Positions 2,730-33,701 of a stretch of 64,000 nt of DNA are shown here, piece by piece. The notes beneath the pieces are model-generated. The model was not told where the DNA came from and ran no database searches. It was given only the letters and a program-made list of their open reading frames with translations. Source of the DNA: Gammaproteobacteria bacterium (lineage in GTDB: Bacteria > Pseudomonadota > Gammaproteobacteria > GCA-001735895). Both the position numbers and the translations under genes were made by a program. How positions within the stretch are numbered: the stretch's first letter is position 1; every line of letters begins with the position of its first letter. The stretch is taken from positions 28,884-92,883 of the forward strand of contig JBNKPX010000001.1 in assembly GCA_050295575.1 (NCBI GenBank), written 5' to 3'.

Positions 2730-4658
2730 TTATAAACTGCCGGCAAAGGTTAACGCCTGTGCTCTTTGAGTGGTAACCTGCATGTCCGGTAAGCTGTCTA
2801 GCATATTCTTACCATAAGACTTTGTGCTCAGACGATTATCGGCAATCATCACCATGCCTCGGTCATTAACATCACGTATCAGTCGCCCTACCCCCTGACG
2901 TAACGCGATAATGGCTTCGGGTATCTGAACATCATTGAAAGCATTGCCGCCATGCTCTGAAACCTTCTGCAATCGTCGCTTATAAACTGGGTCTCCAGGT
3001 GATTTGAAGGGAAGTTTATCGATAATCACAAGCTTAAGGCGATCACCCTTAACGTCCACACCTTCCCAGAAACTACTGGTACCCAGCAGAATAGCATTGG
3101 GTGCTTTCAGGTAAGCCTGCAGTAATTCGCTACGCTGCATTTCACCCTGAATGAACAAGGGATATCGCATCCTTTTGCGCAGCATATTGGCAGTCAGGGT
3201 TAACATACGATAGCTGGTGAATAGAATAAAGGTATTGCCTTCTGTAGCATTAATCAATGCGCAACAATCTTCGATAAATACATCCAGATAATTATCATCA
3301 GATGGAGACGGCATATTTTCAGGCAGGTACAACATGGCCTGTTTTTGATAATCGAAGGGGCTATCGAAACTGGCGCATTGTATATCCGCTATCCCCAGTC
3401 GTTTTCTGAAATAGTCAAAAGAATGATTCGAACTCAAGGTGGCAGAGGTGAAAAACACCGACTTAATGGCACTGCTAAATAGTTGCTGGCTAAATTCGTC
3501 GGCTATCTCAATGGGTGAGATCATCAGGCGAAAGCTGTGTTCATTCCATTCATACCAGCTAACACTATTATTATTTTCCAGTTCAAAATCAGCCAGAGAT
3601 TGGCGATAGGTCTCCAGTCTTGCATAGCATGCTGCCAGCTCCTTACCTCGGGGTTTCAGGGCTTCGAGATTTTTTGATAGCTGTAGCATCTCTTCCTGTA
3701 TCGTTTCTACGGCTTTGCGGATCTCCGGGGCATTCTTGATATGGCGCCATTCACCGCGTGAGGTAAACTTTCCCAGCAACAGGCGAAAGTCTGCCATCAG
3801 CGTTTTATTCTTATCGCATAAGGGCTGGATGTCTGCGCTATCACGTGCTTCCTTGATCTGTGCTTCTGTAATTTCTCGCATCAACATATCGAACTGCCGC
3901 ATCGTGATACTACGGCCAAAAAAATGACTCGCAATATCTGGCAGTTGATGAGCTTCATCAAAAATCAATACATCAACATCAGGCAGCAATTCTCCAAATC
4001 CCTCTTCGCGTAGTGCCTGATCGGAAAAAAACAGGTGATGATTAATCACCACCACATCGGCATCCATCGCCTTGCGGCGCGCTTTGGTAACAAAGCATTG
4101 GGAGAATTCGGGGCAGTCGCTACCCAGGCAATTATCGGCATTGGAAGTGGCGTAAAACCACAGGCTGTCGTTTTCGGGGATATCGGCGAATTCTGCAATA
4201 TCTCCAGTGAGCGAGGTTTGTGACCAATCGGCCAAAGCATCGAATACCCCGGCTAACTGTCGAGTTTGAAAACGGCGTTGCTGACGGTATTTATTGATAC
4301 GATGCGGGCAGCAATAGTTACTACGGCCCTTTAAAAGCGCAAGCTGTTTGCCTGACACAATAGTTTTATTGATTAACGGAATATCCTTTTTAAACAGCTG
4401 ATCCTGCAGGTTTTTTGTACCGGTTGAGATCAGAATCTTGTGTGCCGACAAAAATGCCGGTACCAGATAGGCAAAGGACTTGCCGATACCTGTACTGGCT
4501 TCAATTACCTGACTTTCACCAGCCCTGATGCAACGCATGATCAGGTTAGCCATATTTAATTGGCTATCACGTGTCTGATACCCATCAATGTATTGTTGCA
4601 ATATGCCCTGTTCACCCAGCACATCTTCAACTTCAAGCTCTGAAGCCAGTTTTACCAT
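2730..4658 (-). CDS. yoaA: ATP-dependent DNA helicase YoaA (DinG family, Fe-S helicase)
   Basis: 642 aa with Walker A 'ASTGIGKSFAYLVPA' and DEAH box 'LIFDEAHQLPDIAS'. The Fe-S cysteine block 'NCLGSDCPEFSQCFVTKARRKAMDADVVVINHH' is nearly identical to the E. coli YoaA region as I recall it. Confidence 0.85.
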   Translation of the reverse strand: MVKLASELEVEDVLGEQGILQQYIDGYQTRDSQLNMANLIMRCIRAGESQVIEASTGIGKSFAYLVPAFLSAHKILISTGTKNLQDQLFKKDIPLINKTIVSGKQLALLKGRSNYCCPHRINKYRQQRRFQTRQLAGVFDALADWSQTSLTGDIAEFADIPENDSLWFYATSNADNCLGSDCPEFSQCFVTKARRKAMDADVVVINHHLFFSDQALREEGFGELLPDVDVLIFDEAHQLPDIASHFFGRSITMRQFDMLMREITEAQIKEARDSADIQPLCDKNKTLMADFRLLLGKFTSRGEWRHIKNAPEIRKAVETIQEEMLQLSKNLEALKPRGKELAACYARLETYRQSLADFELENNNSVSWYEWNEHSFRLMISPIEIADEFSQQLFSSAIKSVFFTSATLSSNHSFDYFRKRLGIADIQCASFDSPFDYQKQAMLYLPENMPSPSDDNYLDVFIEDCCALINATEGNTFILFTSYRMLTLTANMLRKRMRYPLFIQGEMQRSELLQAYLKAPNAILLGTSSFWEGVDVKGDRLKLVIIDKLPFKSPGDPVYKRRLQKVSEHGGNAFNDVQIPEAIIALRQGVGRLIRDVNDRGMVMIADNRLSTKSYGKNMLDSLPDMQVTTQRAQALTFAGSL

Positions 4659-26744: not shown

Positions 26745-27299
26745 CTACAGCCAGTACCTGGGATAATGACGCTCAGGATTAGATGAAAGATTATTAATCA
26801 GCAGTGCTACCAGCAGCATTATAAAAACTCCAGACATTACCGGTTGGAGTACATACCAGTAGCCCAGCTGCTGGATATTGTCACTACCAACGACAGCGAT
26901 TAATGCGGTTGCTCCGCCCGGTGGATGCAGGGTTTTGCTAACATGCATAAAAAAAATTGCCGTGGCTACAGATATTGCTCCCTGAACCTCTATAGGAAAG
27001 TCCAGCGTTTGCATGACCCAAACCCCAACTATGGCTGCAATTAAATGACCGCCGATCAGGTTTCTGGGTTGCGCATAAAAGGCATGCGGCGTTCCATAGA
27101 TGAGGACGGCAGATGCACCAAATGAGCCTATAAGGAGGACCTGATCATAAGGAGTAAGCGCTAGAAAGCGATTGATAAGGGCTGCCCCCAGAATACCGGT
27201 AAATGCACCAAGCCATGACCACAGCATCCAGCTAAATGGGTGAATGGGAGGGCTTTTAATACCCTGCCCTTTAAATCGTTTCAGGTATTTAGATAGCAT
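26745..27299 (-). CDS. HPP-family membrane protein
   Basis: 184 aa with four TM helices and the conserved HPPGGAT motif ('TLHPPGGATALIAV'). Confidence 0.75.
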   Translation of the reverse strand: MLSKYLKRFKGQGIKSPPIHPFSWMLWSWLGAFTGILGAALINRFLALTPYDQVLLIGSFGASAVLIYGTPHAFYAQPRNLIGGHLIAAIVGVWVMQTLDFPIEVQGAISVATAIFFMHVSKTLHPPGGATALIAVVGSDNIQQLGYWYVLQPVMSGVFIMLLVALLINNLSSNPERHYPRYWL

Positions 27300-27407
27300 G
27301 TGCTCATAGATTTGAGTGTACTCTTGTGAGCATCATATCTCAAAAAGGGGCCGTTATGGTGCATAAATTATAAGGATATTCGCTTCAGAGGGTTTTATTT
27401 TGATAAC

Positions 27408-28197
27408 AACGAAGGGCACGAAGAACACTAAGGAAGATATTCTTATTGGTATTGACTTATATTTGCTCTGATAAGTAGTGAATCAGGTTTTGATTTTATC
27501 CTGCAAAATTACACAAAACGGACATTCATTATTTTCATTCTAGCTGGTATGACTGCAGTTGATCTACGTGAGACATTCCCATTATTTGAAATGTTTAAAG
27601 AATATAACCACAGAGAACACAGGGAGCGCAGAGAAAAATATATTTTATATTTCGAGATTTGGTGTATTTGGTGGTTAGATCTATTTTAACTTGTACCTGA
27701 TAATCCTCTGGCAAGCCCCCTCCCCAGCAGAGGTAAACTGGTGGTGCTGACAACAAAAGAGGAGACTAGCGTATTCACAATCACCTTCGAATGGCACTGG
27801 CCCTATTAAAAACCTACCAAGACAGCCTGAAGAGTATCGCTGTTGAGACGACCTTACAAACCATGAGCAGATCACAGAACTTGCTCATATACTACAGCAA
27901 AATAACTTGCTTGGGTACGCGTTAAACCAACCGCTTTCGGCACCTACTTACCTATAGCATCGGAGAATATGATTGTCTGCTGTCAGAGTAAATCAGAACT
28001 ACTTCCTGAAAAGGCCTGATGTCATCTGAACTTATACATCTTATTAATACCTTACAAACTCTGTGTACTCTATTACCGAAGTGGTATAAATTCATTTTTT
28101 AATGATTAAAGCAAATTAGCAATAACAAATCCGATGTAATGTTTTAGTACCCGCATAAAGAATCTTTTTATCTTAGTGTTCTTCGTGCCCTTCGTGG
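27408..28197. mobile_element. MITE-like non-autonomous element, about 790 bp, bounded by perfect 24-bp terminal inverted repeats built from 'cacgaag' heptamers
   Basis: Left 'acgaagggcacgaagaacactaag' (27409-27432) is the exact reverse complement of right 'cttagtgttcttcgtgcccttcgt' (28173-28196). There is no ORF with transposase features inside. Its internal ends share sequence with the 210-bp repeats at 28173-28410 and 31049-31259. Confidence 0.55.
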
Positions 28198-28410
28198 TTA
28201 ACTTTTTTTACTACTACAAACAGACAAAACACACCAGAGAATATATTCTTATTCATGCATTGCAAACTCAGTGTCCTCTGTGATCTCAGTGGTTTAAATT
28301 GTCTTTTTAACTCCAAAGAAAACAAGCGGGCGATAACAGTCACAAACTCACTTTTTAAAACCACCCAAAAACATACCCTTCGTGTTCTTCGTGCACTTCG
28401 TGGTTAATCA
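28173..28410 (+). repeat. intergenic repeat copy A (about 210-240 bp, 'cttcgtgNNcttcgtggttaa' ends)
   Basis: About 85% identical to 31049-31259 in the same orientation. The shared core reads 'aatattcttattcat..caaactc.gtgtcctctgtgatctc.gtggtttaaatt.tcttttt..aaaacaagcgggcgataa..ttttttaaaaccacc..acccttcgtg.tcttcgtg..cttcgtggttaat'. Copy A ends 6 bp before the cysG stop. Confidence 0.7.
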
Positions 28411-28416
28411 AATCAA

Positions 28417-29817
28417 TCACTTGATCTCTTCACCCGGTTTAAACCAGTGCAGTTTTTTATGCAGCTCCACGACTTCTCCAACCACGATCAGGGTTGGCGC
28501 TTTTACATTATTTTTCTGCACCAGTCCGGGTAAGGTATTCAGGTCACCTATGAAAACGCGTTGATCAGGTGTGGTACCTTTCTCGATCAATGCTGCGGGT
28601 GTTGCTTCATCTCGCCCATGCTGTTTCAGGTTTTCACAGATCGCCTGTACATTATTCAGGCCCATATAAAAAACAACCGTCTGGTTGGAATGCGACAACA
28701 TATCCCAGTTCAGATCACTGGTACCATCCTTAAGGTGTCCAGTAACGAAGATACAGGCCTGGGCGAAGTCTCTATGTGTGAGTGGGATACCTGCATAGGT
28801 AGTACAACCCGAGGCAGCCGTAATACCCGGTACTACCTGAAATGGCACACCTTCATCGATCAATTCTGAAATCTCTTCACCGCCACGTCCGAAAATAAAG
28901 TTATCTCCCCCTTTCAGACGCAATACCCGCTTACCCTCTTTAGCCAGGCGAACCAGTAGCTGATTAATGTTTTCCTGCGCAATTGCGTGGTTAGATCGTT
29001 CTTTGCCAGCATATATACGCTCAGCATCGCGTCGTACCAGATCCATAATTGGGCCTGAGACCAGTCGGTCATAGACAATCACATCTGCCTTTTGCATCAG
29101 GCGCAAGGCACGAAAAGTCAGAAGATCAGGGTCACCCGGTCCCGCACCTACCAGAAAAACCTCACCGCTATAGCTGGGATCGGAATTGGCTTCTGTGATC
29201 AGCTTTTCTAGTAATTGACGTGCATCATCATTACGACCGGCAAACACATGCTCTGATACCGGGCCTTCAAGAATCGACTCCCAGAACTTGCGACGCTCTT
29301 CTACCCTTGGAAATGTCTGTTTTACTGATTCACGGTAAGATTCCACCAGCTTTGCAAGTTTGCCATAGGCTGATGGCGTGCAACTTTCTAGATTGGTGCG
29401 TATAAGGCGCGCCAGTACCGGAGATGCTCCGCCAGTCGAAACCGCTATCTGTACCGGGTCACGATTGATAATAGAAGGCATGATATAACTGCCCAGATCT
29501 GCATGATCGACCACATTGCAGGGAATTTTGAGTGCCTCTGCTTCTTCTGCGACGAGTCGGTTAACACTTTCATTATCTGTCGAAGCCACCACCAGATGCG
29601 CGTCTATTAAATCGCCGGCTTGGTATTCGCGCTCTATCCATTGAACCTTAGATTCCTTATGAAATAGCGCCATTTCCTGCCCTAGCTCGGGTGAGATGAC
29701 CGTAACCAGTGCGCCTGCAGAACAGAGTAAATCAGCCTTACGAGCGGCGATACCACCCGCGCCAACAACAATGCAAAGCTTATCGCGGATATTGAAAAAG
29801 ATAGGAAGATAATTCAT
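28417..29817 (-). CDS. cysG: Siroheme synthase (uroporphyrinogen-III C-methyltransferase / precorrin-2 dehydrogenase / sirohydrochlorin ferrochelatase)
   Basis: 466 aa. The N-terminal Rossmann motif 'IVGAGGIAARKA' marks the precorrin-2 dehydrogenase part. The C-terminal SUMT domain carries 'VFLVGAGPGDPDLLT' and 'LKGGDNFIFGRGGEE'. Confidence 0.9.
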   Translation of the reverse strand: MNYLPIFFNIRDKLCIVVGAGGIAARKADLLCSAGALVTVISPELGQEMALFHKESKVQWIEREYQAGDLIDAHLVVASTDNESVNRLVAEEAEALKIPCNVVDHADLGSYIMPSIINRDPVQIAVSTGGASPVLARLIRTNLESCTPSAYGKLAKLVESYRESVKQTFPRVEERRKFWESILEGPVSEHVFAGRNDDARQLLEKLITEANSDPSYSGEVFLVGAGPGDPDLLTFRALRLMQKADVIVYDRLVSGPIMDLVRRDAERIYAGKERSNHAIAQENINQLLVRLAKEGKRVLRLKGGDNFIFGRGGEEISELIDEGVPFQVVPGITAASGCTTYAGIPLTHRDFAQACIFVTGHLKDGTSDLNWDMLSHSNQTVVFYMGLNNVQAICENLKQHGRDEATPAALIEKGTTPDQRVFIGDLNTLPGLVQKNNVKAPTLIVVGEVVELHKKLHWFKPGEEIK

Positions 29818-29915
29818 GTTAAGGATCTACTGCCTCTATATAAGCGATTCATTATAGAGAATCTTTGGCATAACAACCAATAAAACTCCAACGGGTATTG
29901 CTTAAGCTACAAAAG

Positions 29916-31034
29916 TTACGATATCAGAGTGCTGATTTGAGCCTGCAAAGGGTCTGTTAGCGGTTTTAATTTTTTACGCATTACCGAACCCAATGCATCA
30001 GAAACCCCAAAAATCGGGTTGAGTGTCACTTCGCCCATCTGCGCGAGTATCAGCATAGCGCGGATTTGATCCTGATATTCCCCTGCCAACCTGATACAGG
30101 CCTGTAATTGCTCATCGCTGCTTTCAATTATCCAGTTTTTGGCAATTCTTTCCGCTTCTGCAAAATCTCTTTGCTTGATCGCTGATAAAGGTAATTCAGC
30201 ATGATAAGTACTGATCGCATGGAACATTGAAACAATGGTTTCCTGACTTGCAGCTTTATCGATTACCTGATTTACCGTTTTGAGAAAAGCCTGTCCAGCG
30301 GCGCTAAAGTAACGCTTGAGCTGTAATGCGTAAGCATTGCCCGCTTCGATGAGCGGATTTAGCGTAGCGAGTAATTCAGCGTATCTGACATGCTCGGGTA
30401 TCGCTTCAGGCAAATCATCCGGCATGCTATGTAAAAAGCCTACATACAGGCTTTGCTTACGTTTTGCCCGCTTCCATAAATCTTCAACCTCTTCGGGTTT
30501 GAGTAACTGCCGCTGCAGGCAGAGTCGTACCGAGTCAATCATATCCCGGTGTTCCACTTCAAATGGCAGAAACTCCAGCAGAAATTCGGCCAGTTCACGA
30601 CCCAGAGGCGACTCGACAATCTCACTTTTTTCCAGTAAACGGCGCGCATTATCCGCCGATGGATACGCCCACCAGGCATGTTGTGCAATCTCGGGGGACA
30701 GGCTGGGCGCATGCACCACCGCTACCACGGCCTCGGGTTCACCCAGCAGCAGTAATTGCGCAAGACTCTCTTCACGGCGCTCCTGCCCCATACGTGTCCA
30801 GCGTTTGATGTAAACAGGATACCCACCAGGTGAGCCCATGATCTTGCTGGATAACAGCTCCTTCACAATCTTAATGTACTTTTCATCCTTGCAGTTGGGG
30901 TTCAACTGAACCTTAACATCGCCTTTTGCGGTCAATGCATAGACAATCATTCTGGATTCATCAATGCGCACGGCTTTAAGGTCCTGCGCCAGCAGCACGT
31001 TTAATCGCAGGTTGTCTTCGTTGGATAGCTGCAT
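29916..31034 (-). CDS. hypothetical alpha-helical protein (372 aa), co-oriented upstream of cysG
   Basis: Long ORF with coding-like composition, flanked by repeat copy B upstream and cysG downstream. No family was recognised. Confidence 0.5.
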   Translation of the reverse strand: MQLSNEDNLRLNVLLAQDLKAVRIDESRMIVYALTAKGDVKVQLNPNCKDEKYIKIVKELLSSKIMGSPGGYPVYIKRWTRMGQERREESLAQLLLLGEPEAVVAVVHAPSLSPEIAQHAWWAYPSADNARRLLEKSEIVESPLGRELAEFLLEFLPFEVEHRDMIDSVRLCLQRQLLKPEEVEDLWKRAKRKQSLYVGFLHSMPDDLPEAIPEHVRYAELLATLNPLIEAGNAYALQLKRYFSAAGQAFLKTVNQVIDKAASQETIVSMFHAISTYHAELPLSAIKQRDFAEAERIAKNWIIESSDEQLQACIRLAGEYQDQIRAMLILAQMGEVTLNPIFGVSDALGSVMRKKLKPLTDPLQAQISTLIS

Positions 31035-31048
31035 ACTTTATTTATTAT

Positions 31049-31259
31049 TCACGAAAGTTATTAACCACGAAGGACACGAAGATCACGAAGGAAAATATTC
31101 TTATTCATACTTTTCAAACTCTGAGTCCTCTGTGATCTCTGTGGTTTAAATTATCTTTTTTAGCCCAAGAAAACGAACGGGCGATAATAATTACAGACTA
31201 TTTTTTTAAAACCACCAACAAACACACCCTTCGTGCTCTTCGTGTGCTTCGTGGTTAAT
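31049..31259 (+). repeat. intergenic repeat copy B (about 210 bp) with 33-bp imperfect terminal inverted repeats of 'cacgaag' heptamers
   Basis: Left 'attaaccacgaaggacacgaagatcacgaagg' against right 'cccttcgtgctcttcgtgtgcttcgtggttaat' (31/33 complementary). The body is about 85% identical to copy A. Confidence 0.7.
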
Positions 31260-31263
31260 TTTA

Positions 31264-32646
31264 TTAATTCAACTGAATCCGCTCCCCCCAGGGAACAGAT
31301 TTACGGCCTTTCACCAGCCAGATACTGGGATAGCTGGATTCGTATTCGGGAAACTTGCCTTCGGCATCGGTAAAGTAAATCAACAGGTCGGGACGAATAT
31401 CGTTTTCTTCCACCCATTCAAACACCGGACAGAAATCGGTACTGCCACCACCTATAACTCTCTGTGGTAACTGGCAATGCTCCCAGGCCTCGAAGGTCCA
31501 GGGGCTTTCTCCAGTGATTTTCGAGTCGCAGGTGATCAGGGTAACTCTAGATCTTACCTGCGCTTTTAGTGAATCTACCTCAGCTATAAATTCGTTTAAT
31601 TCATCCTGCTTAATCGACCCACTCACATCAACGGCCACCACTACATTCATCTGTGGGCTACGCAGGCTGGGATAGATCGCAGGATCACCACGTCGACTGG
31701 ATGGGCGGGTATAGCTGTAATCATCGCGCGCGATACTGTTCATATAGCGCGCCAGTAACACTCGCCAGGGCAAGGTAGGCTGTAGAAAGAAGTCAATCAT
31801 GCGAGCCATGCCTTCAGCCAGCTTACCTGCCTGTTGTGCCTGTTGTGCGGCGCCTGCCAGACGTTGCTGCCATTGCACCTGTAATTCGTCTTTTTCGCCT
31901 TCAGTTAAAGGCTCTGGTTGAGCAGTTTGAGACGGTTGCTCTGTTGCTTCAGTAGGATTCGGATGCTGCAGCTCTTCATCAGCATTATGTTTGGGCAAAC
32001 CTGATTTCTGTTGTTCTGGATCATGATCTCTATCCTGCCCCTGTCCTTCAGATTCGGAGGGTTTATCACCAGAAGACTTTTGCTCCTGTGGCTGTTCTCC
32101 CTGCCCCTCACCTCCTGACTCGGTTTTTTTGTCCTTCTGTTCAAGTGGATTTTGTTGCTTGTCCTGTCCACCTTCGCTGGTTTGATCCTGTTTGTCGTAG
32201 AGGTGTTGATCAAGTGTCTCTGAATGGTCGTTATCCTTGATCAGAGGATATATCTCTTCTGCAGTCATACCCTTGTACTCTTTCATCACCAAAGAGCCTG
32301 GTGGCGCTGTCAGGCCTTCGTCAAGCAGGATGGGGTTGATGGCATAATCACAGGCGATATCCCAGCGATGCTTAATACGATGACCACGCCGTGCAAAATG
32401 CGATAAGGCACAGTGTAGTGCTTCGTGAGCCAGTACAAACTGGGTTTCATCGTTCTTTAATGCTTCGATATATTCAGGGTTGTAATAAAACTTGCGCGCA
32501 TCGGTGCCAGTGGTTGGACACCATGCAGGGTCTGCTGCCTGCAACGGCAGGCGTAACACTAGCGCGCCCAGAAAGGGTTTATCCAGAATCAGACGCGTGC
32601 GTGCTGCACTGAGTTTATTTTCAATTGCTTCCAGTGGTTCCTGCAC
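31264..32646 (-). CDS. VWA-domain protein with an N-terminal DUF2201_N-type putative metallopeptidase domain (HExxH) and an acidic low-complexity linker
   Basis: 'LAHEALHCALSH' is an HExxH motif. The Q/E/D/G-rich linker 'QTSEGGQDKQQNPLEQKDKKTESGGEGQGEQPQEQKSSGDKPSESEGQGQDRDHDPEQQ' follows. The C-terminal VWA region has the MIDAS-like 'VVAVDVSGSI'. This is the COG3864-type partner of MoxR ATPases. Confidence 0.75.
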   Translation of the reverse strand: MQEPLEAIENKLSAARTRLILDKPFLGALVLRLPLQAADPAWCPTTGTDARKFYYNPEYIEALKNDETQFVLAHEALHCALSHFARRGHRIKHRWDIACDYAINPILLDEGLTAPPGSLVMKEYKGMTAEEIYPLIKDNDHSETLDQHLYDKQDQTSEGGQDKQQNPLEQKDKKTESGGEGQGEQPQEQKSSGDKPSESEGQGQDRDHDPEQQKSGLPKHNADEELQHPNPTEATEQPSQTAQPEPLTEGEKDELQVQWQQRLAGAAQQAQQAGKLAEGMARMIDFFLQPTLPWRVLLARYMNSIARDDYSYTRPSSRRGDPAIYPSLRSPQMNVVVAVDVSGSIKQDELNEFIAEVDSLKAQVRSRVTLITCDSKITGESPWTFEAWEHCQLPQRVIGGGSTDFCPVFEWVEENDIRPDLLIYFTDAEGKFPEYESSYPSIWLVKGRKSVPWGERIQLN

Positions 32647-32657
32647 AACGAGACGAC

Positions 32658-33701
32658 TTAATCGTAAAGGATGAGATCAGCAATCGAATCCGCCCATTCG
32701 GCGAATTGAGCGACCTCAAACAGATCGTTACCGATGGCTCGATGCATATCCGAAACCAGCATCACCCCCATTTCACGCTGAGGAAAACAGCTCGCGTACT
32801 TGAGGATATTGCCAAATACTGTGGATGCCTGATCACTGCCCTGAGCGCGTATGGCTCGGCCCACCAAAGCGGAGGCAACCGCATATTGAAGATCGATTTC
32901 ATCCGGGGCCTTGCTATCTTCTCCGCTAATGATCTTATCCAGATCCGGCATTTGATCCAAACTATCGATAAAGGCATGGCACTCAATACCCGCAGCCTGT
33001 CCGACACAGGCCTGTAGAGAGCCCAGTAAAAGATCTGGAAAGTCGATGAATTTCTGTAGGGCACGATGAGCATATTCCCAGGACCTTGGTGATGGGAAGG
33101 CAACCGGATTATGAGCGGGGTCAAAATCGAACAGTAATTCAGGGCGGAAACGTAAAAAACCGATAATACGTTCATCGATACCATTGCGATAAGCCCAGGC
33201 TACCCAGTCATCCAGATTGAGGTCGATCTGGTAATGCGAAAAACGGTTGGCTAAAGGTGCAGGCATGGCATAGGTAACACCGCGGTCGCCCTGTCGATTA
33301 CCCGCTGCAAAGATCGCCCAGCCCGGGGGTACCTGATAATTACCCAGTCGTCGATCCAGTATCAACTGGTAGGCGGCGGCAGAAACCGAAGGTGCTGCTG
33401 AATTGATTTCATCCAGAAACAATATGCCTGCCTCGCCATGTTGCTTTGCATCAGGCAACATAGAAGGCACGGCCCATTCGACCTTGTCATCTAGCTTGAA
33501 GGGAATACCGCGCAGGTCACTAGGTTCCATTTGCGATAATCGAATATCGATGACCGGTAGATCATGACGCTCGCCTATCTGCAGGATAATCTGTGATTTT
33601 CCAACCCCTGGGGGCCCCCACAGCATTACCGGGGTGTGGTGTCCTTTCTGTGTACTTAGAACCTCTTCATTGAGTACTCTGGCAAGATGAGCTGGACGCA
33701 T
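32658..33701 (-). CDS. MoxR-family AAA+ ATPase (AAA_5 / CbbQ-NorQ-like)
   Basis: Walker A 'GPPGVGKSQI', Walker B 'ILFLDEINSAAP' and sensor regions are present; length 347 aa. The gene starts 12 bp upstream of the VWA gene. Confidence 0.8.
   Translation of the reverse strand: MRPAHLARVLNEEVLSTQKGHHTPVMLWGPPGVGKSQIILQIGERHDLPVIDIRLSQMEPSDLRGIPFKLDDKVEWAVPSMLPDAKQHGEAGILFLDEINSAAPSVSAAAYQLILDRRLGNYQVPPGWAIFAAGNRQGDRGVTYAMPAPLANRFSHYQIDLNLDDWVAWAYRNGIDERIIGFLRFRPELLFDFDPAHNPVAFPSPRSWEYAHRALQKFIDFPDLLLGSLQACVGQAAGIECHAFIDSLDQMPDLDKIISGEDSKAPDEIDLQYAVASALVGRAIRAQGSDQASTVFGNILKYASCFPQREMGVMLVSDMHRAIGNDLFEVAQFAEWADSIADLILYD

What the first reader, a model, noticed from the sequence alone, without database searches (positions are those of the whole stretch)
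27408..31259. New heptamer-based ('cacgaag') intergenic repeat family; two direct copies bracket cysG plus an unknown gene
Three related elements sit in a 4-kb stretch: a roughly 790-bp MITE-like unit with perfect 24-bp terminal inverted repeats, and two 210-bp copies about 85% identical to each other.

All termini are arrays of two or three 'cacgaag' / 'cttcgtg' heptamers spaced 9-10 bp apart, roughly one helical turn, ending in 'ggttaa'. This looks like transposase or regulator binding sites rather than REP hairpins.

The two 210-bp copies lie in direct orientation exactly at the gene boundaries flanking cysG plus the 372-aa unknown. That 2.85-kb unit could be excised or duplicated by recombination between the repeats. 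I do not recognise this repeat family.
Basis: seen in the sequence. Interest (0 to 1): 0.6.

Follow-up and report, generated by a model that had tools for sequence, protein, structure and literature searches.

The report
Mini inverted repeats linked to nuclease
Three gene-less inverted-repeat elements around cysG belong to a very large repeat family that I could not find described and that occurs across bacterial phyla. Its gene-carrying form holds only a small nuclease gene of unknown function, which points to an unusual kind of selfish DNA and suggests a role for that nuclease.

Summary
Element A (27404-28201), B (28202-28408) and C (31060-31259) end in arrays of the heptamer CACGAAG at a strict 9-bp period. 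These arrays occur nowhere else in the 64-kb window.

The family is not local. Hits span Proteobacteria, Acidobacteria, Planctomycetes, Chloroflexi, Verrucomicrobia and others, mostly as 58-300 bp inverted pairs.

The only recurrent gene-bearing form is TIR + a 123-aa GxxExxY / PDDEXK_3 nuclease gene + TIR (about 430 bp), and internally deleted intermediates exist. Of 28 evaluable GxxExxY genes at 69% identity or more to the reference gene, 23 had arrays on both sides and 5 on one side. Cultured Bacteroides, Sphingomonas and Gemmatirosa show variant heptamers (CACAGAG, CGCGAAG, CGCAGAG).

There are no target-site duplications, no Rfam match and no literature match.

In this lineage the elements are old. 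Relatives carry them at the same sites, some with decayed heptamers.

The idea that B and C form a cysG excision cassette is not supported. That the nuclease moves these elements is inferred, not shown.

The parts
27404..28201 (.). Element A: 798-bp ORF-less element with near-identical inverted ends. Its interior is related to B and C at both ends.
   Evidence: (I5). No intact ORF and no GxxExxY remnant.
27404..27432 (+). A, left terminus: TAAC-AACGAAG GG CACGAAG AA CACTAAG (9-bp period).
27604..27633 (+). Internal variant array inside A: ATAAC-CACAGAG AA CACAGGG AG CGCAGAG.
   Evidence: (I6). It matches CACAGAG-type termini in metagenome loci L179, L181 and L199.
28172..28201 (-). A, right terminus (read on the minus strand: TTAAC-CACGAAG GG CACGAAG AA CACTAAG).
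28202..28408 (.). Element B: 207 bp, 84% identical to C, with its left terminus degenerate.
   Evidence: As RNA it has no significant fold (z = 0.14).
28267..28295 (-). Internal variant array of B (minus strand: TAAAC-CACTGAG AT CACAGAG GA CACTGAG).
   Evidence: It is the best conserved block among B, C and their orthologs.
28377..28408 (-). B, intact terminus (minus strand: TTAAC-CACGAAG TG CACGAAG AA CACGAAG G).
31060..31259 (.). Element C: 200 bp with both termini intact. It fills the spacer between the DUF2201 gene and the 372-aa DsrS-like gene.
   Evidence: I3. As RNA it folds to -70 kcal/mol, z = -6.5. Orthologous elements sit at the same site in relatives.
31060..31091 (+). C, left terminus: ATTAAC-CACGAAG GA CACGAAG AT CACGAAG G.
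31119..31150 (-). Internal variant array of C (minus strand: TAAAC-CACAGAG AT CACAGAG GA CTCAGAG).
31228..31259 (-). C, right terminus (minus strand: TTAAC-CACGAAG CA CACGAAG AG CACGAAG G).
28417..29817 (-). Context: cysG (siroheme synthase, 466 aa), a host gene and not cargo.
   Evidence: Pfam domains; source names.
29916..31034 (-). Context: 372-aa protein with no Pfam or NCBIfam hit. One homolog cluster is named 'sulfur reduction protein DsrS'.
   Evidence: P0235.

Best explanation
A, B and C are ORF-less, partly decayed members of a cross-phylum family of very small inverted-repeat elements. Each end of such an element is built as (T)T[C/A]AC followed by three copies of CACGAAG, or of a close variant CACRRAG, at a 9-bp period.

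The gene-bearing form of the family is about 430 bp. It consists of one arm, a 123-aa PD-(D/E)XK nuclease gene (GxxExxY, Pfam PDDEXK_3) that starts 0-12 nt after the arm, and the inverted arm a few nt after the stop codon.

Shown:
- Family membership.
- The gene-arm linkage.
- Deletion intermediates that connect gene-bearing and gene-less forms.
- Position-specific conservation of the heptamers.
- Absence of target-site duplications.

Inferred:
- The heptamer arrays are the cis sites recognised by the GxxExxY nuclease, three protomers per arm.
- The nuclease promotes spread of both gene-bearing and gene-less copies by DNA breakage and repair (homing-like conversion, or cut-and-paste without duplication), not by DDE transposition.

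In the window's lineage the elements are old residents of two operon spacers. They are tolerated downstream of genes and are probably no longer moving. At most, C acts as a stable RNA hairpin in the polycistronic transcript.
For: 1. Breadth. CACGAAGNNCACGAAGNNCACGAAG has an expectation of 0.27 matches in 596 Gb.
2. Structure. 71 inverted pairs of 58-464 bp were found in the genome set and 51 in the viral set.
3. Gene linkage from the DNA side. Full units L115 6542-6958 and L036 939-1365 carry PF13366 / TIGR04256 genes (E 1e-40). 7 of 120 pattern-selected loci hold GxxExxY sequence, always abutting the arrays. These include stubs that keep only the N- and C-terminal codons (L077, L008, L073, L100).
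4. Gene linkage from the protein side, which is an independent ascertainment. Of 28 evaluable metagenomic GxxExxY genes at 69% identity or more to the L115 gene, 23 have arrays on both sides, 5 on one side and 0 on neither. Only 8 of 1158 control windows have an array.
5. Cultured genomes. In Bacteroides finegoldii the gene follows radA and is flanked by TTCAC-CACAGAG/CGCAGAG/CACGGAG ... CTCTGTG x3-GTGAA. Sphingomonas (fabD|gene|fabG) has a CGCGAAG array. Gemmatirosa has a CGCAGAG hairpin.
6. Constraint. In partner arms the heptamer positions are 79-100% conserved. Spacers are only 41-53% identical between arms.
7. Catalytic residues. D67 is invariant and E77 and K79 are at least 90% conserved across 72 diverse members. 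The AF2 model has pLDDT 95. Its nearest solved folds are Cas4, Hjc and lambda exonuclease, all weak matches: best E-value 0.013, TM-score 0.43-0.58, none at E <= 0.001.
8. Lineage contrast. Window C keeps 6 of 6 perfect heptamers. Its ortholog in a relative whose 372-aa protein is 93% identical (L203) keeps 1 of 6, at similar overall divergence.
Against: - No experiment or co-occurrence test links the nuclease to movement.
- No GxxExxY gene or remnant was found in the 64-kb window or in 10-kb loci of relatives (best E 0.68).
- None was found in 1.06 Mb of viral loci that hold many gene-less elements.
- In viral contigs the arms also bracket other small ORFs: a 99-aa unknown and a 111-aa DUF6527 protein.
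- A 123-aa nuclease has no obvious separate DNA-binding domain.
- No filled-versus-empty site pair was recovered.
- The elements in this lineage are old. B and part of A are present in a relative at 81% aa identity, so nothing shows recent movement here.
- Heptamer type does not track protein clades strictly.
Confidence: 0.6

Rival explanations
1. The elements are host-useful structured RNAs or protein-binding arrays (terminators, mRNA stabilisers, RNase III sites or regulator sites). Their spread and conservation reflect that function. On this view the GxxExxY gene is a passenger that exploits them.
For: - C folds into a -70 kcal/mol hairpin, z = -6.5.
- In the genome set, short elements lie a median of 35 nt from gene 3' ends. 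Convergent spacers are over-represented and divergent ones are rare (15 versus 5 of 37).
- The C site is occupied in every relative examined.
- Purine spacers on one arm opposite pyrimidine spacers on the other would still allow G-U pairs in RNA.
Against: - Arms are not kept complementary at the spacers.
- B has lost one arm and has no significant fold.
- The ortholog of C in L203 has decayed heptamers with no loss of the flanking genes.
- The terminator scan finds nothing at the elements.
- There is no Rfam family.
- An identical 7-mer conserved across phyla is hard to explain by a host-specific regulator.
Confidence: 0.15
2. They are ordinary MITEs of an unseen DDE-type insertion sequence that shares these ends. 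The GxxExxY gene is cargo.
For: The elements are small and ORF-less, have inverted ends, lie in AT-rich intergenic sites and form a stable RNA hairpin. These fit the general description of MITEs in PMC10969869. Multiple transposase-binding repeats at each end are known for IS21, Tn7 and Mu (from memory).
Against: - There is no target-site duplication at any boundary offset (0-7) or length (2-6) in 129 non-redundant pairs.
Its only ORF-filled units carry GxxExxY.
- The viral set has three longer pairs (1666-2355 bp). I did not classify their ORFs. One looks like a phage structural protein; none was recognised as a transposase.
- The nuclease gene fills the whole space between the arms in every full unit.
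Confidence: 0.1
3. One reading: B and C are direct repeats that allow the 2.85-kb segment (the 372-aa gene plus cysG) to be excised or duplicated by recombination.
For: B and C are in direct orientation at the two ends of the two-gene segment. One relative (L206) has the 372-aa gene but no cysG after it.
Against: - The longest identical run between B and C is 15 bp at 84% identity. From general knowledge of RecA-dependent recombination, this is below the usual minimum for efficient homologous exchange.
- Relatives L202-L205 have both genes and the C-ortholog without B.
- L206 shows no repeat scar at the junction, only an 11-bp gap.
Confidence: 0.03
4. It is a purely local duplication with no family outside this locus.
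For: Within the 64-kb window the arrays occur only in this 4-kb stretch.
Against: Hundreds of loci elsewhere carry the same ends.
Confidence: 0.01

Closest known systems
Prokaryotic MITEs (for example Chunjie of Geobacter, Nezha of cyanobacteria)
   Same: Both are short, ORF-less and intergenic, have terminal inverted repeats and form stable RNA hairpins. Size variants arise by internal deletion. A gene-bearing relative shares the ends, as in type II MITEs, where conservation is confined to the ends (PMC10969869).
   Different: - There is no target-site duplication. Chunjie has 9-bp direct repeats (PMC3184786).
- The ends are three phased heptamers rather than a unique sequence.
- The gene-bearing relative encodes a PD-(D/E)XK nuclease, not a transposase.
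- The same ends occur across many phyla.
REP/REPIN elements with their RAYT gene (from memory: Nunvar 2010; Bertels and Rainey 2011)
   Same: Both are abundant short intergenic palindromic repeats without target duplications. In both, the proposed cognate gene is itself flanked by the repeats in inverted orientation.
   Different: RAYTs are HUH/Y1 transposases of the IS200/IS605 type and are usually single-copy. REPs are 20-40-bp palindromes with a GTAG motif. Here the gene is a PD-(D/E)XK nuclease that is often multi-copy, and the repeats are direct heptamer arrays.
Free-standing homing endonuclease genes
   Same: Both are tiny nuclease-only selfish genes wedged into operon spacers (fabD|gene|fabG, radA|gene). 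Both have patchy, horizontally transferred distributions ('multiple transfers', PMC3424549).
   Different: Homing endonuclease genes have no inverted-repeat arms and leave no gene-less repeat derivatives. The nuclease family also differs.
ORF-bearing intervening sequences of 23S rRNA (Leptospira, Coxiella; ORF family PF05635) (from memory)
   Same: A small ORF is bracketed by inverted repeats that form a long stem in the transcript.
   Different: Those lie inside rRNA genes and carry a four-helix-bundle ORF. I did not test here whether they share the heptamer arms.
Transposon ends with several phased binding sites (IS21, Tn7, Mu, IS607) (from memory)
   Same: Several copies of a short recognition motif sit at each end, in inverted orientation between the ends.
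   Different: Those motifs are about 19-22 bp with irregular spacing, the elements are kilobases long, they encode DDE or serine transposases, and most make target duplications.
Type III toxin-antitoxin loci (ToxIN) (from memory)
   Same: Short tandem repeats lie immediately upstream of a small nuclease gene.
   Different: ToxI repeats are about 36 nt and act as RNA pseudoknots. There is no inverted copy downstream and there are no gene-less dispersed copies.

Membership tests
MITE (miniature inverted-repeat transposable element) | Short (typically under 500 bp) and without coding capacity | tested here: met
   B is 207 bp, C is 200 bp and A is 798 bp (long for a MITE). None has an intact ORF or a nuclease remnant.
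MITE (miniature inverted-repeat transposable element) | Terminal inverted repeats | tested here: met
   A: 29 nt at 97%. C: 32 nt at 94%. B has only one arm left.
MITE (miniature inverted-repeat transposable element) | Flanking direct repeats (target-site duplication) | tested here: not met
   No excess of direct repeats at any offset (0-7) or length (2-6) in 129 non-redundant pairs. None is visible at A, B or C.
MITE (miniature inverted-repeat transposable element) | An autonomous relative with the same ends that encodes a transposase | tested here: inconclusive
   A gene-bearing relative with the same ends exists. Its gene is a PD-(D/E)XK nuclease with no demonstrated transposase activity.
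MITE (miniature inverted-repeat transposable element) | Multiple dispersed copies in the same genome | not testable with these tools
   Only 64 kb of this genome is available, and it holds 3 elements at 2 sites. Other genomes show several copies per 8-kb locus (for example L053, L071, L091).
REP/REPIN-RAYT | Cognate gene is a Y1 (HUH) transposase of the IS200/IS605 type | tested here: not met
   The bracketed gene is PF13366 / TIGR04256. Its fold is nearest Cas4, Hjc and lambda exonuclease, though those matches are weak.
REP/REPIN-RAYT | Repeat unit is itself a short palindrome | tested here: not met
   Each arm is a direct array of a non-palindromic heptamer.
GxxExxY-nuclease inverted-repeat cassettes (family defined here) | Ends of the form (T)T[C/A]AC + three CACRRAG heptamers at a 9-bp period, inverted at the two ends | tested here: met
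   A, B (one end) and C.
GxxExxY-nuclease inverted-repeat cassettes (family defined here) | PDDEXK_3 gene, or a remnant of it, between the arms | tested here: not met
   None in A, B or C. They are therefore filed as gene-less derivatives, like 69 of the 71 pairs.
Rfam RNA families | Covariance-model match at or near the gathering score | tested here: not met
   Only sub-threshold generic hairpin (miRNA precursor) or snoRNA noise.

The most novel reading that the evidence does not exclude
GxxExxY / PDDEXK_3 proteins form one of the largest families of unknown function (18,938 clusters at 50% identity). On this reading they are the sole mobility or maintenance enzyme of a new class of minimal selfish element. 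That element is a roughly 430-bp unit whose phased-heptamer arms are bound by nuclease protomers and which spreads without target duplication. It leaves vast numbers of gene-less hairpin derivatives, such as A, B and C, in bacterial and phage genomes of many phyla.
Probability: 0.35. Interest if true: 0.85.

Novelty: new variant of a known kind. Interest (0 to 1): 0.68.

Why it matters
If the link holds, it has four consequences.

- It gives a concrete, testable function to PF13366, a protein family listed as 'unknown' with 'multiple transfers' (PMC3424549). The function would be recognition of a defined 7-bp motif repeated at a 9-bp phase.
- It would define one of the smallest self-contained selfish DNA units known.
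- It would explain a class of intergenic hairpins that break metagenome assemblies and generate spurious small ORFs.
- It would offer a compact, sequence-specific nuclease with a known candidate target.

For this window specifically, it removes the idea that cysG is on a mobile cassette.

Tried and rejected
- Coding capacity of A: all six frames are full of stops, and there is no similarity to any inward ORF of other loci.
- GxxExxY remnants in the window and in relatives' loci, by profile HMM: none.
- Target-site duplications: none.
- Empty-site search: a gapped pattern in viral contigs found nothing. Joined-flank BLAST among all 330 fetched loci found only tandem arrays.
- The '833-bp element in six viral contigs' turned out to be the same phage region with identical flanks, not independent insertions.
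- Exact-string literature searches for CACGAAG and CACAGAG arrays returned only primers. 'GxxExxY', 'PDDEXK_3' and the TIGR/Pfam accessions gave no functional study. A MITE review and a small-repeat review mention nothing similar.
- PDB sequence searches with one protein and with a profile gave no hit.
- The first AF2 run on a shallow alignment failed (pLDDT 42). A diverse alignment fixed it.
- Plasmids as vehicles: only 8 of 72,556 records carry the gene, all non-mobilizable.
- Strict co-variation of heptamer type with protein clade is only partial.


Full report
**Observation**

Reading 27000-31800 and running the repeat finder confirms three related elements.

- A spans 27404-28201 (798 bp). 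Its arms are 29 nt at 97% complementarity, and 24 nt of that are perfect.
- C spans 31060-31259 (200 bp). Its arms are 32 nt at 94%, and all six heptamers are perfect.
- B spans 28202-28408 and is 84% identical to C over 170 bp in direct orientation. Only its 28377-28408 end is intact.
- Each end reads TTAAC + CACGAAG NN CACGAAG NN CACGAAG, with a strict 9-bp period.
- B, C and A also carry an internal array of the variant CACAGAG/CACTGAG.

The signal is far above chance: 10 matches against 0.21 expected. There are 8 generalised triple arrays, all within 27408-31253, and none in shuffles of the window.

All genes here are on the minus strand. In transcription order they are:
- MoxR-type AAA gene
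- DUF2201/VWA gene
- element C
- a 372-aa protein
- cysG
- elements B and A
- an HPP-family gene

The 372-aa protein has no Pfam or NCBIfam hit. One homolog cluster is named DsrS. The host is an uncultured gammaproteobacterial MAG, probably a sulfur oxidiser given that DsrS name.

**The family is not local**

The pattern CACGAAGNNCACGAAGNNCACGAAG has 21 specified bases and an expectation of 0.27 matches in 596 Gb on both strands. Hits include Methylobacter, many Deltaproteobacteria, Acidobacteria, Planctomycetes, Verrucomicrobia, Chloroflexi (including the complete Herpetosiphon aurantiacus genome), Nitrospirae, Thioalkalivibrio and others.

The shared end is (T)T[C/A]AC-CACGAAG R N CACGAAG R N CACGAAG. 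Most occurrences are inverted pairs:
- 71 pairs of 58-464 bp in the genome set.
- 51 pairs in the viral set, mostly 72-210 bp.

Outside the ends, A, B and C resemble nothing in other phyla.

**What lies between the arms**

Two pattern-selected loci, L115 6542-6958 and L036 939-1365, hold a complete unit. The left arm is followed at once by ATG, then a 123-codon ORF, a stop, and the right arm. The ORF is PF13366 PDDEXK_3 / TIGR04256 'GxxExxY protein' (E about 1e-40).

Five further loci keep only the first or last codons of this gene directly against the arms (L077, L008, L065, L073, L100). These are deletion intermediates between gene-bearing and gene-less forms.

The reverse test started from the protein. 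A metagenome scan with the L115 protein returned 80 loci. Their flanks show the arms again and again.
- At 69% identity or more: 28 genes evaluable, 23 with arrays on both sides, 5 on one side, none without.
- Below 69%: 6 on both sides, 15 on one side, 8 without.
- Control windows: 8 of 1158.

More distant genes are flanked by the same architecture with other heptamers: CACAGAG/CACGGAG, CGCAGAG and CATGAAG.

Annotated genomes of cultured bacteria agree:
- In Bacteroides finegoldii, the radA stop is followed by TTCAC-CACAGAG GA CGCAGAG GA CACGGAG, then the gene, then CTCTGTG x3-GTGAA.
- Sphingomonas parapaucimobilis has the gene between fabD and fabG, with a CGCGAAG array upstream.
- Gemmatirosa has a CGCAGAG hairpin downstream.

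Mixed arms (CACGAAG on one side, CACAGAG-type on the other) occur in a phage region and inside B and C. The working consensus is therefore CACRRAG.

**Constraint**

I took arms not selected by my search pattern, meaning the partner arm of each hit.
- Heptamer positions are 79-100% conserved.
- The two spacer positions agree between arms only 41-53% of the time, close to the composition expectation.

The conserved thing is therefore the heptamer and its phase, not arm complementarity. This favours sequence-specific recognition over a mere stem. Because spacers are purine-rich on one arm, G-U pairs could still soften this argument for RNA.

**No duplications**

Across 129 non-redundant pairs there is no excess of flanking direct repeats at any boundary offset (0-7) or length (2-6). 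The T-rich positions just outside the AC dinucleotide may be a target preference.

**The protein**

- The family is very large: 18,938 clusters at 50% identity with E <= 1e-3.
- D67 is invariant, and E77 and K79 (the PD-(D/E)XK triad) are at least 90% conserved, as is the GxxExxY motif, in a diverse alignment.
- AF2 gives pLDDT 95.3.
- Foldseek against PDB returns only weak matches: best E-value 0.013, none at E <= 0.001. The top ones are Cas4 SSO0001 (TM-score 0.58), the Holliday-junction resolvase Hjc and lambda exonuclease. It has a bare nuclease core with no extra domain.
- PDB has no sequence relative.
- The literature lists the family as of unknown function with multiple horizontal transfers (PMC3424549).

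**History at this locus**

I fetched orthologous loci through homologs of the 372-aa protein.

The C site is occupied in every relative:
- Relatives at 93% aa identity (L203, L205) carry a clear C-ortholog whose heptamers have decayed (TTCGAAG, TACGAAG, CATGAAG; CTTCCTG).
- L202 and L204 have the same element plus a 357-bp insertion.
- L206 (86%) carries an A-like variant.
- L208 and L209 (81%) carry a 270-bp CACAGAG-type element with an unrelated interior.

At overall divergence of about 20%, window C kept 6 of 6 perfect heptamers while L203 kept 1 of 6.

The A+B site differs:
- It is empty in L202-L205, where the cysG-HPP spacer is 77 bp.
- L208 has a B-ortholog and part of A's interior downstream of cysG.

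A and B are therefore old and were lost in one branch, not newly inserted.

No GxxExxY gene or remnant exists in the window or in these loci.

**The cassette idea**

- B and C share no identical run longer than 15 bp.
- Relatives have the two genes without B.
- L206 lacks cysG without a repeat scar.

Nothing supports excision or duplication through B and C.

**Rival readings**

- C would form a very stable RNA hairpin (-70 kcal/mol, z = -6.5).
- Short elements in other genomes lie close to gene 3' ends, with convergent spacers over-represented.

Tolerance, or a modest RNA-level effect, is therefore plausible. Several points argue against a primarily host-serving role:
- B has no significant fold.
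- Orthologous arrays decay freely.
- The terminator scan finds nothing at the elements.
- Rfam has no match.

A hidden DDE transposon is unlikely:
- There are no duplications.
- The viral set has three longer pairs of 1.7-2.4 kb whose ORFs I did not classify further.

**Weak points**

- The nuclease-moves-the-repeats step is inference.
- Viral loci with many gene-less copies contain no GxxExxY gene, and there the arms sometimes bracket other small ORFs.
- No filled/empty allele pair was found.
- The genome-wide co-occurrence test could not be run because the collection scans were exhausted.

**Comparison with known elements, and verdict**

The closest known kinds are MITEs and REPIN/RAYT systems.
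- The strict MITE test fails on target duplications and on the nature of the gene-bearing relative.
- The REPIN test fails on the enzyme family and the repeat structure.

Neither Rfam, two reviews of bacterial small repeats (PMC10969869, PMC3184786) nor full-text string searches describe phased CACRRAG arms or their link to GxxExxY genes.

I rate it a new variant of a known kind: a small inverted-repeat selfish element. There is a substantial chance (about 0.35) that it represents a new class driven by a PD-(D/E)XK nuclease.

Noticed in passing
L202 and L204, about 4010-4370 (inside the ortholog of element C): A 357-bp insertion carries a 93-aa ORF with no Pfam hit. It is followed by an attC-like imperfect palindrome (TAACAAGGCAATGTTGCGG...CCGCAAATTGCGACGTTAT), and GTTAT is present on both sides. 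It looks like a lone integron gene cassette inserted at a secondary site.
   Followed up: partly
L123, L129, L163 (just downstream of the right arm of GxxExxY units): attC-like sequences (GCGAACAACGGCATGCAGCCGGACGC...GCTGATGCC...TGTTCG) lie here, with a BrnT-like toxin ORF next door. Some nuclease units appear to sit inside integron cassette arrays.
   Followed up: no
L051 6470-7720 (Vicinamibacterales MAG): A tandem satellite of about 155-bp units, at least 7 copies, each containing a CACGAAG x3 array and an inverted partner.
   Followed up: no
L017 7193-7271 and L045 4608-4700: Uninterrupted tandem runs of 9-10 heptamer-plus-spacer units (CACGAAGGG or CACGAAGCG), so the arrays can expand.
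   Followed up: no
L331 (Sphingomonas parapaucimobilis NZ_CP155749.1) and L332 (Bacteroides finegoldii NZ_OY725952.1): GxxExxY genes are wedged between housekeeping genes in the same orientation (fabD|gene|fabG, and radA|gene). In Sphingomonas the stop codon almost abuts the fabG start and the downstream arm is missing.
   Followed up: partly
window 29916-31034 with 31264-33701: The 372-aa protein has no Pfam domain and has thousands of homologs (one cluster is named DsrS). In all relatives examined it sits directly after a MoxR AAA / DUF2201-VWA pair. cysG follows it in most relatives but not in L206.
   Followed up: partly
proteins P0274-P0279: Two-domain (275-295 aa) versions of the GxxExxY nuclease exist, as tandem fusions.
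   Followed up: no
L208 and L209 4215-4500, compared with window 31060-31259: The same intergenic site carries a CACAGAG-type element with an unrelated interior in relatives at 81% aa identity. This means either repeated insertion at one site or replacement of one element by another through the shared ends.
   Followed up: partly
L214/L254 (371-bp unit) and L253 (406-bp unit), viral contigs: CACGAAG arms tightly bracket other small phage ORFs: a 99-aa unknown and a 111-aa DUF6527 protein. The nuclease gene is therefore not the only possible content.
   Followed up: partly
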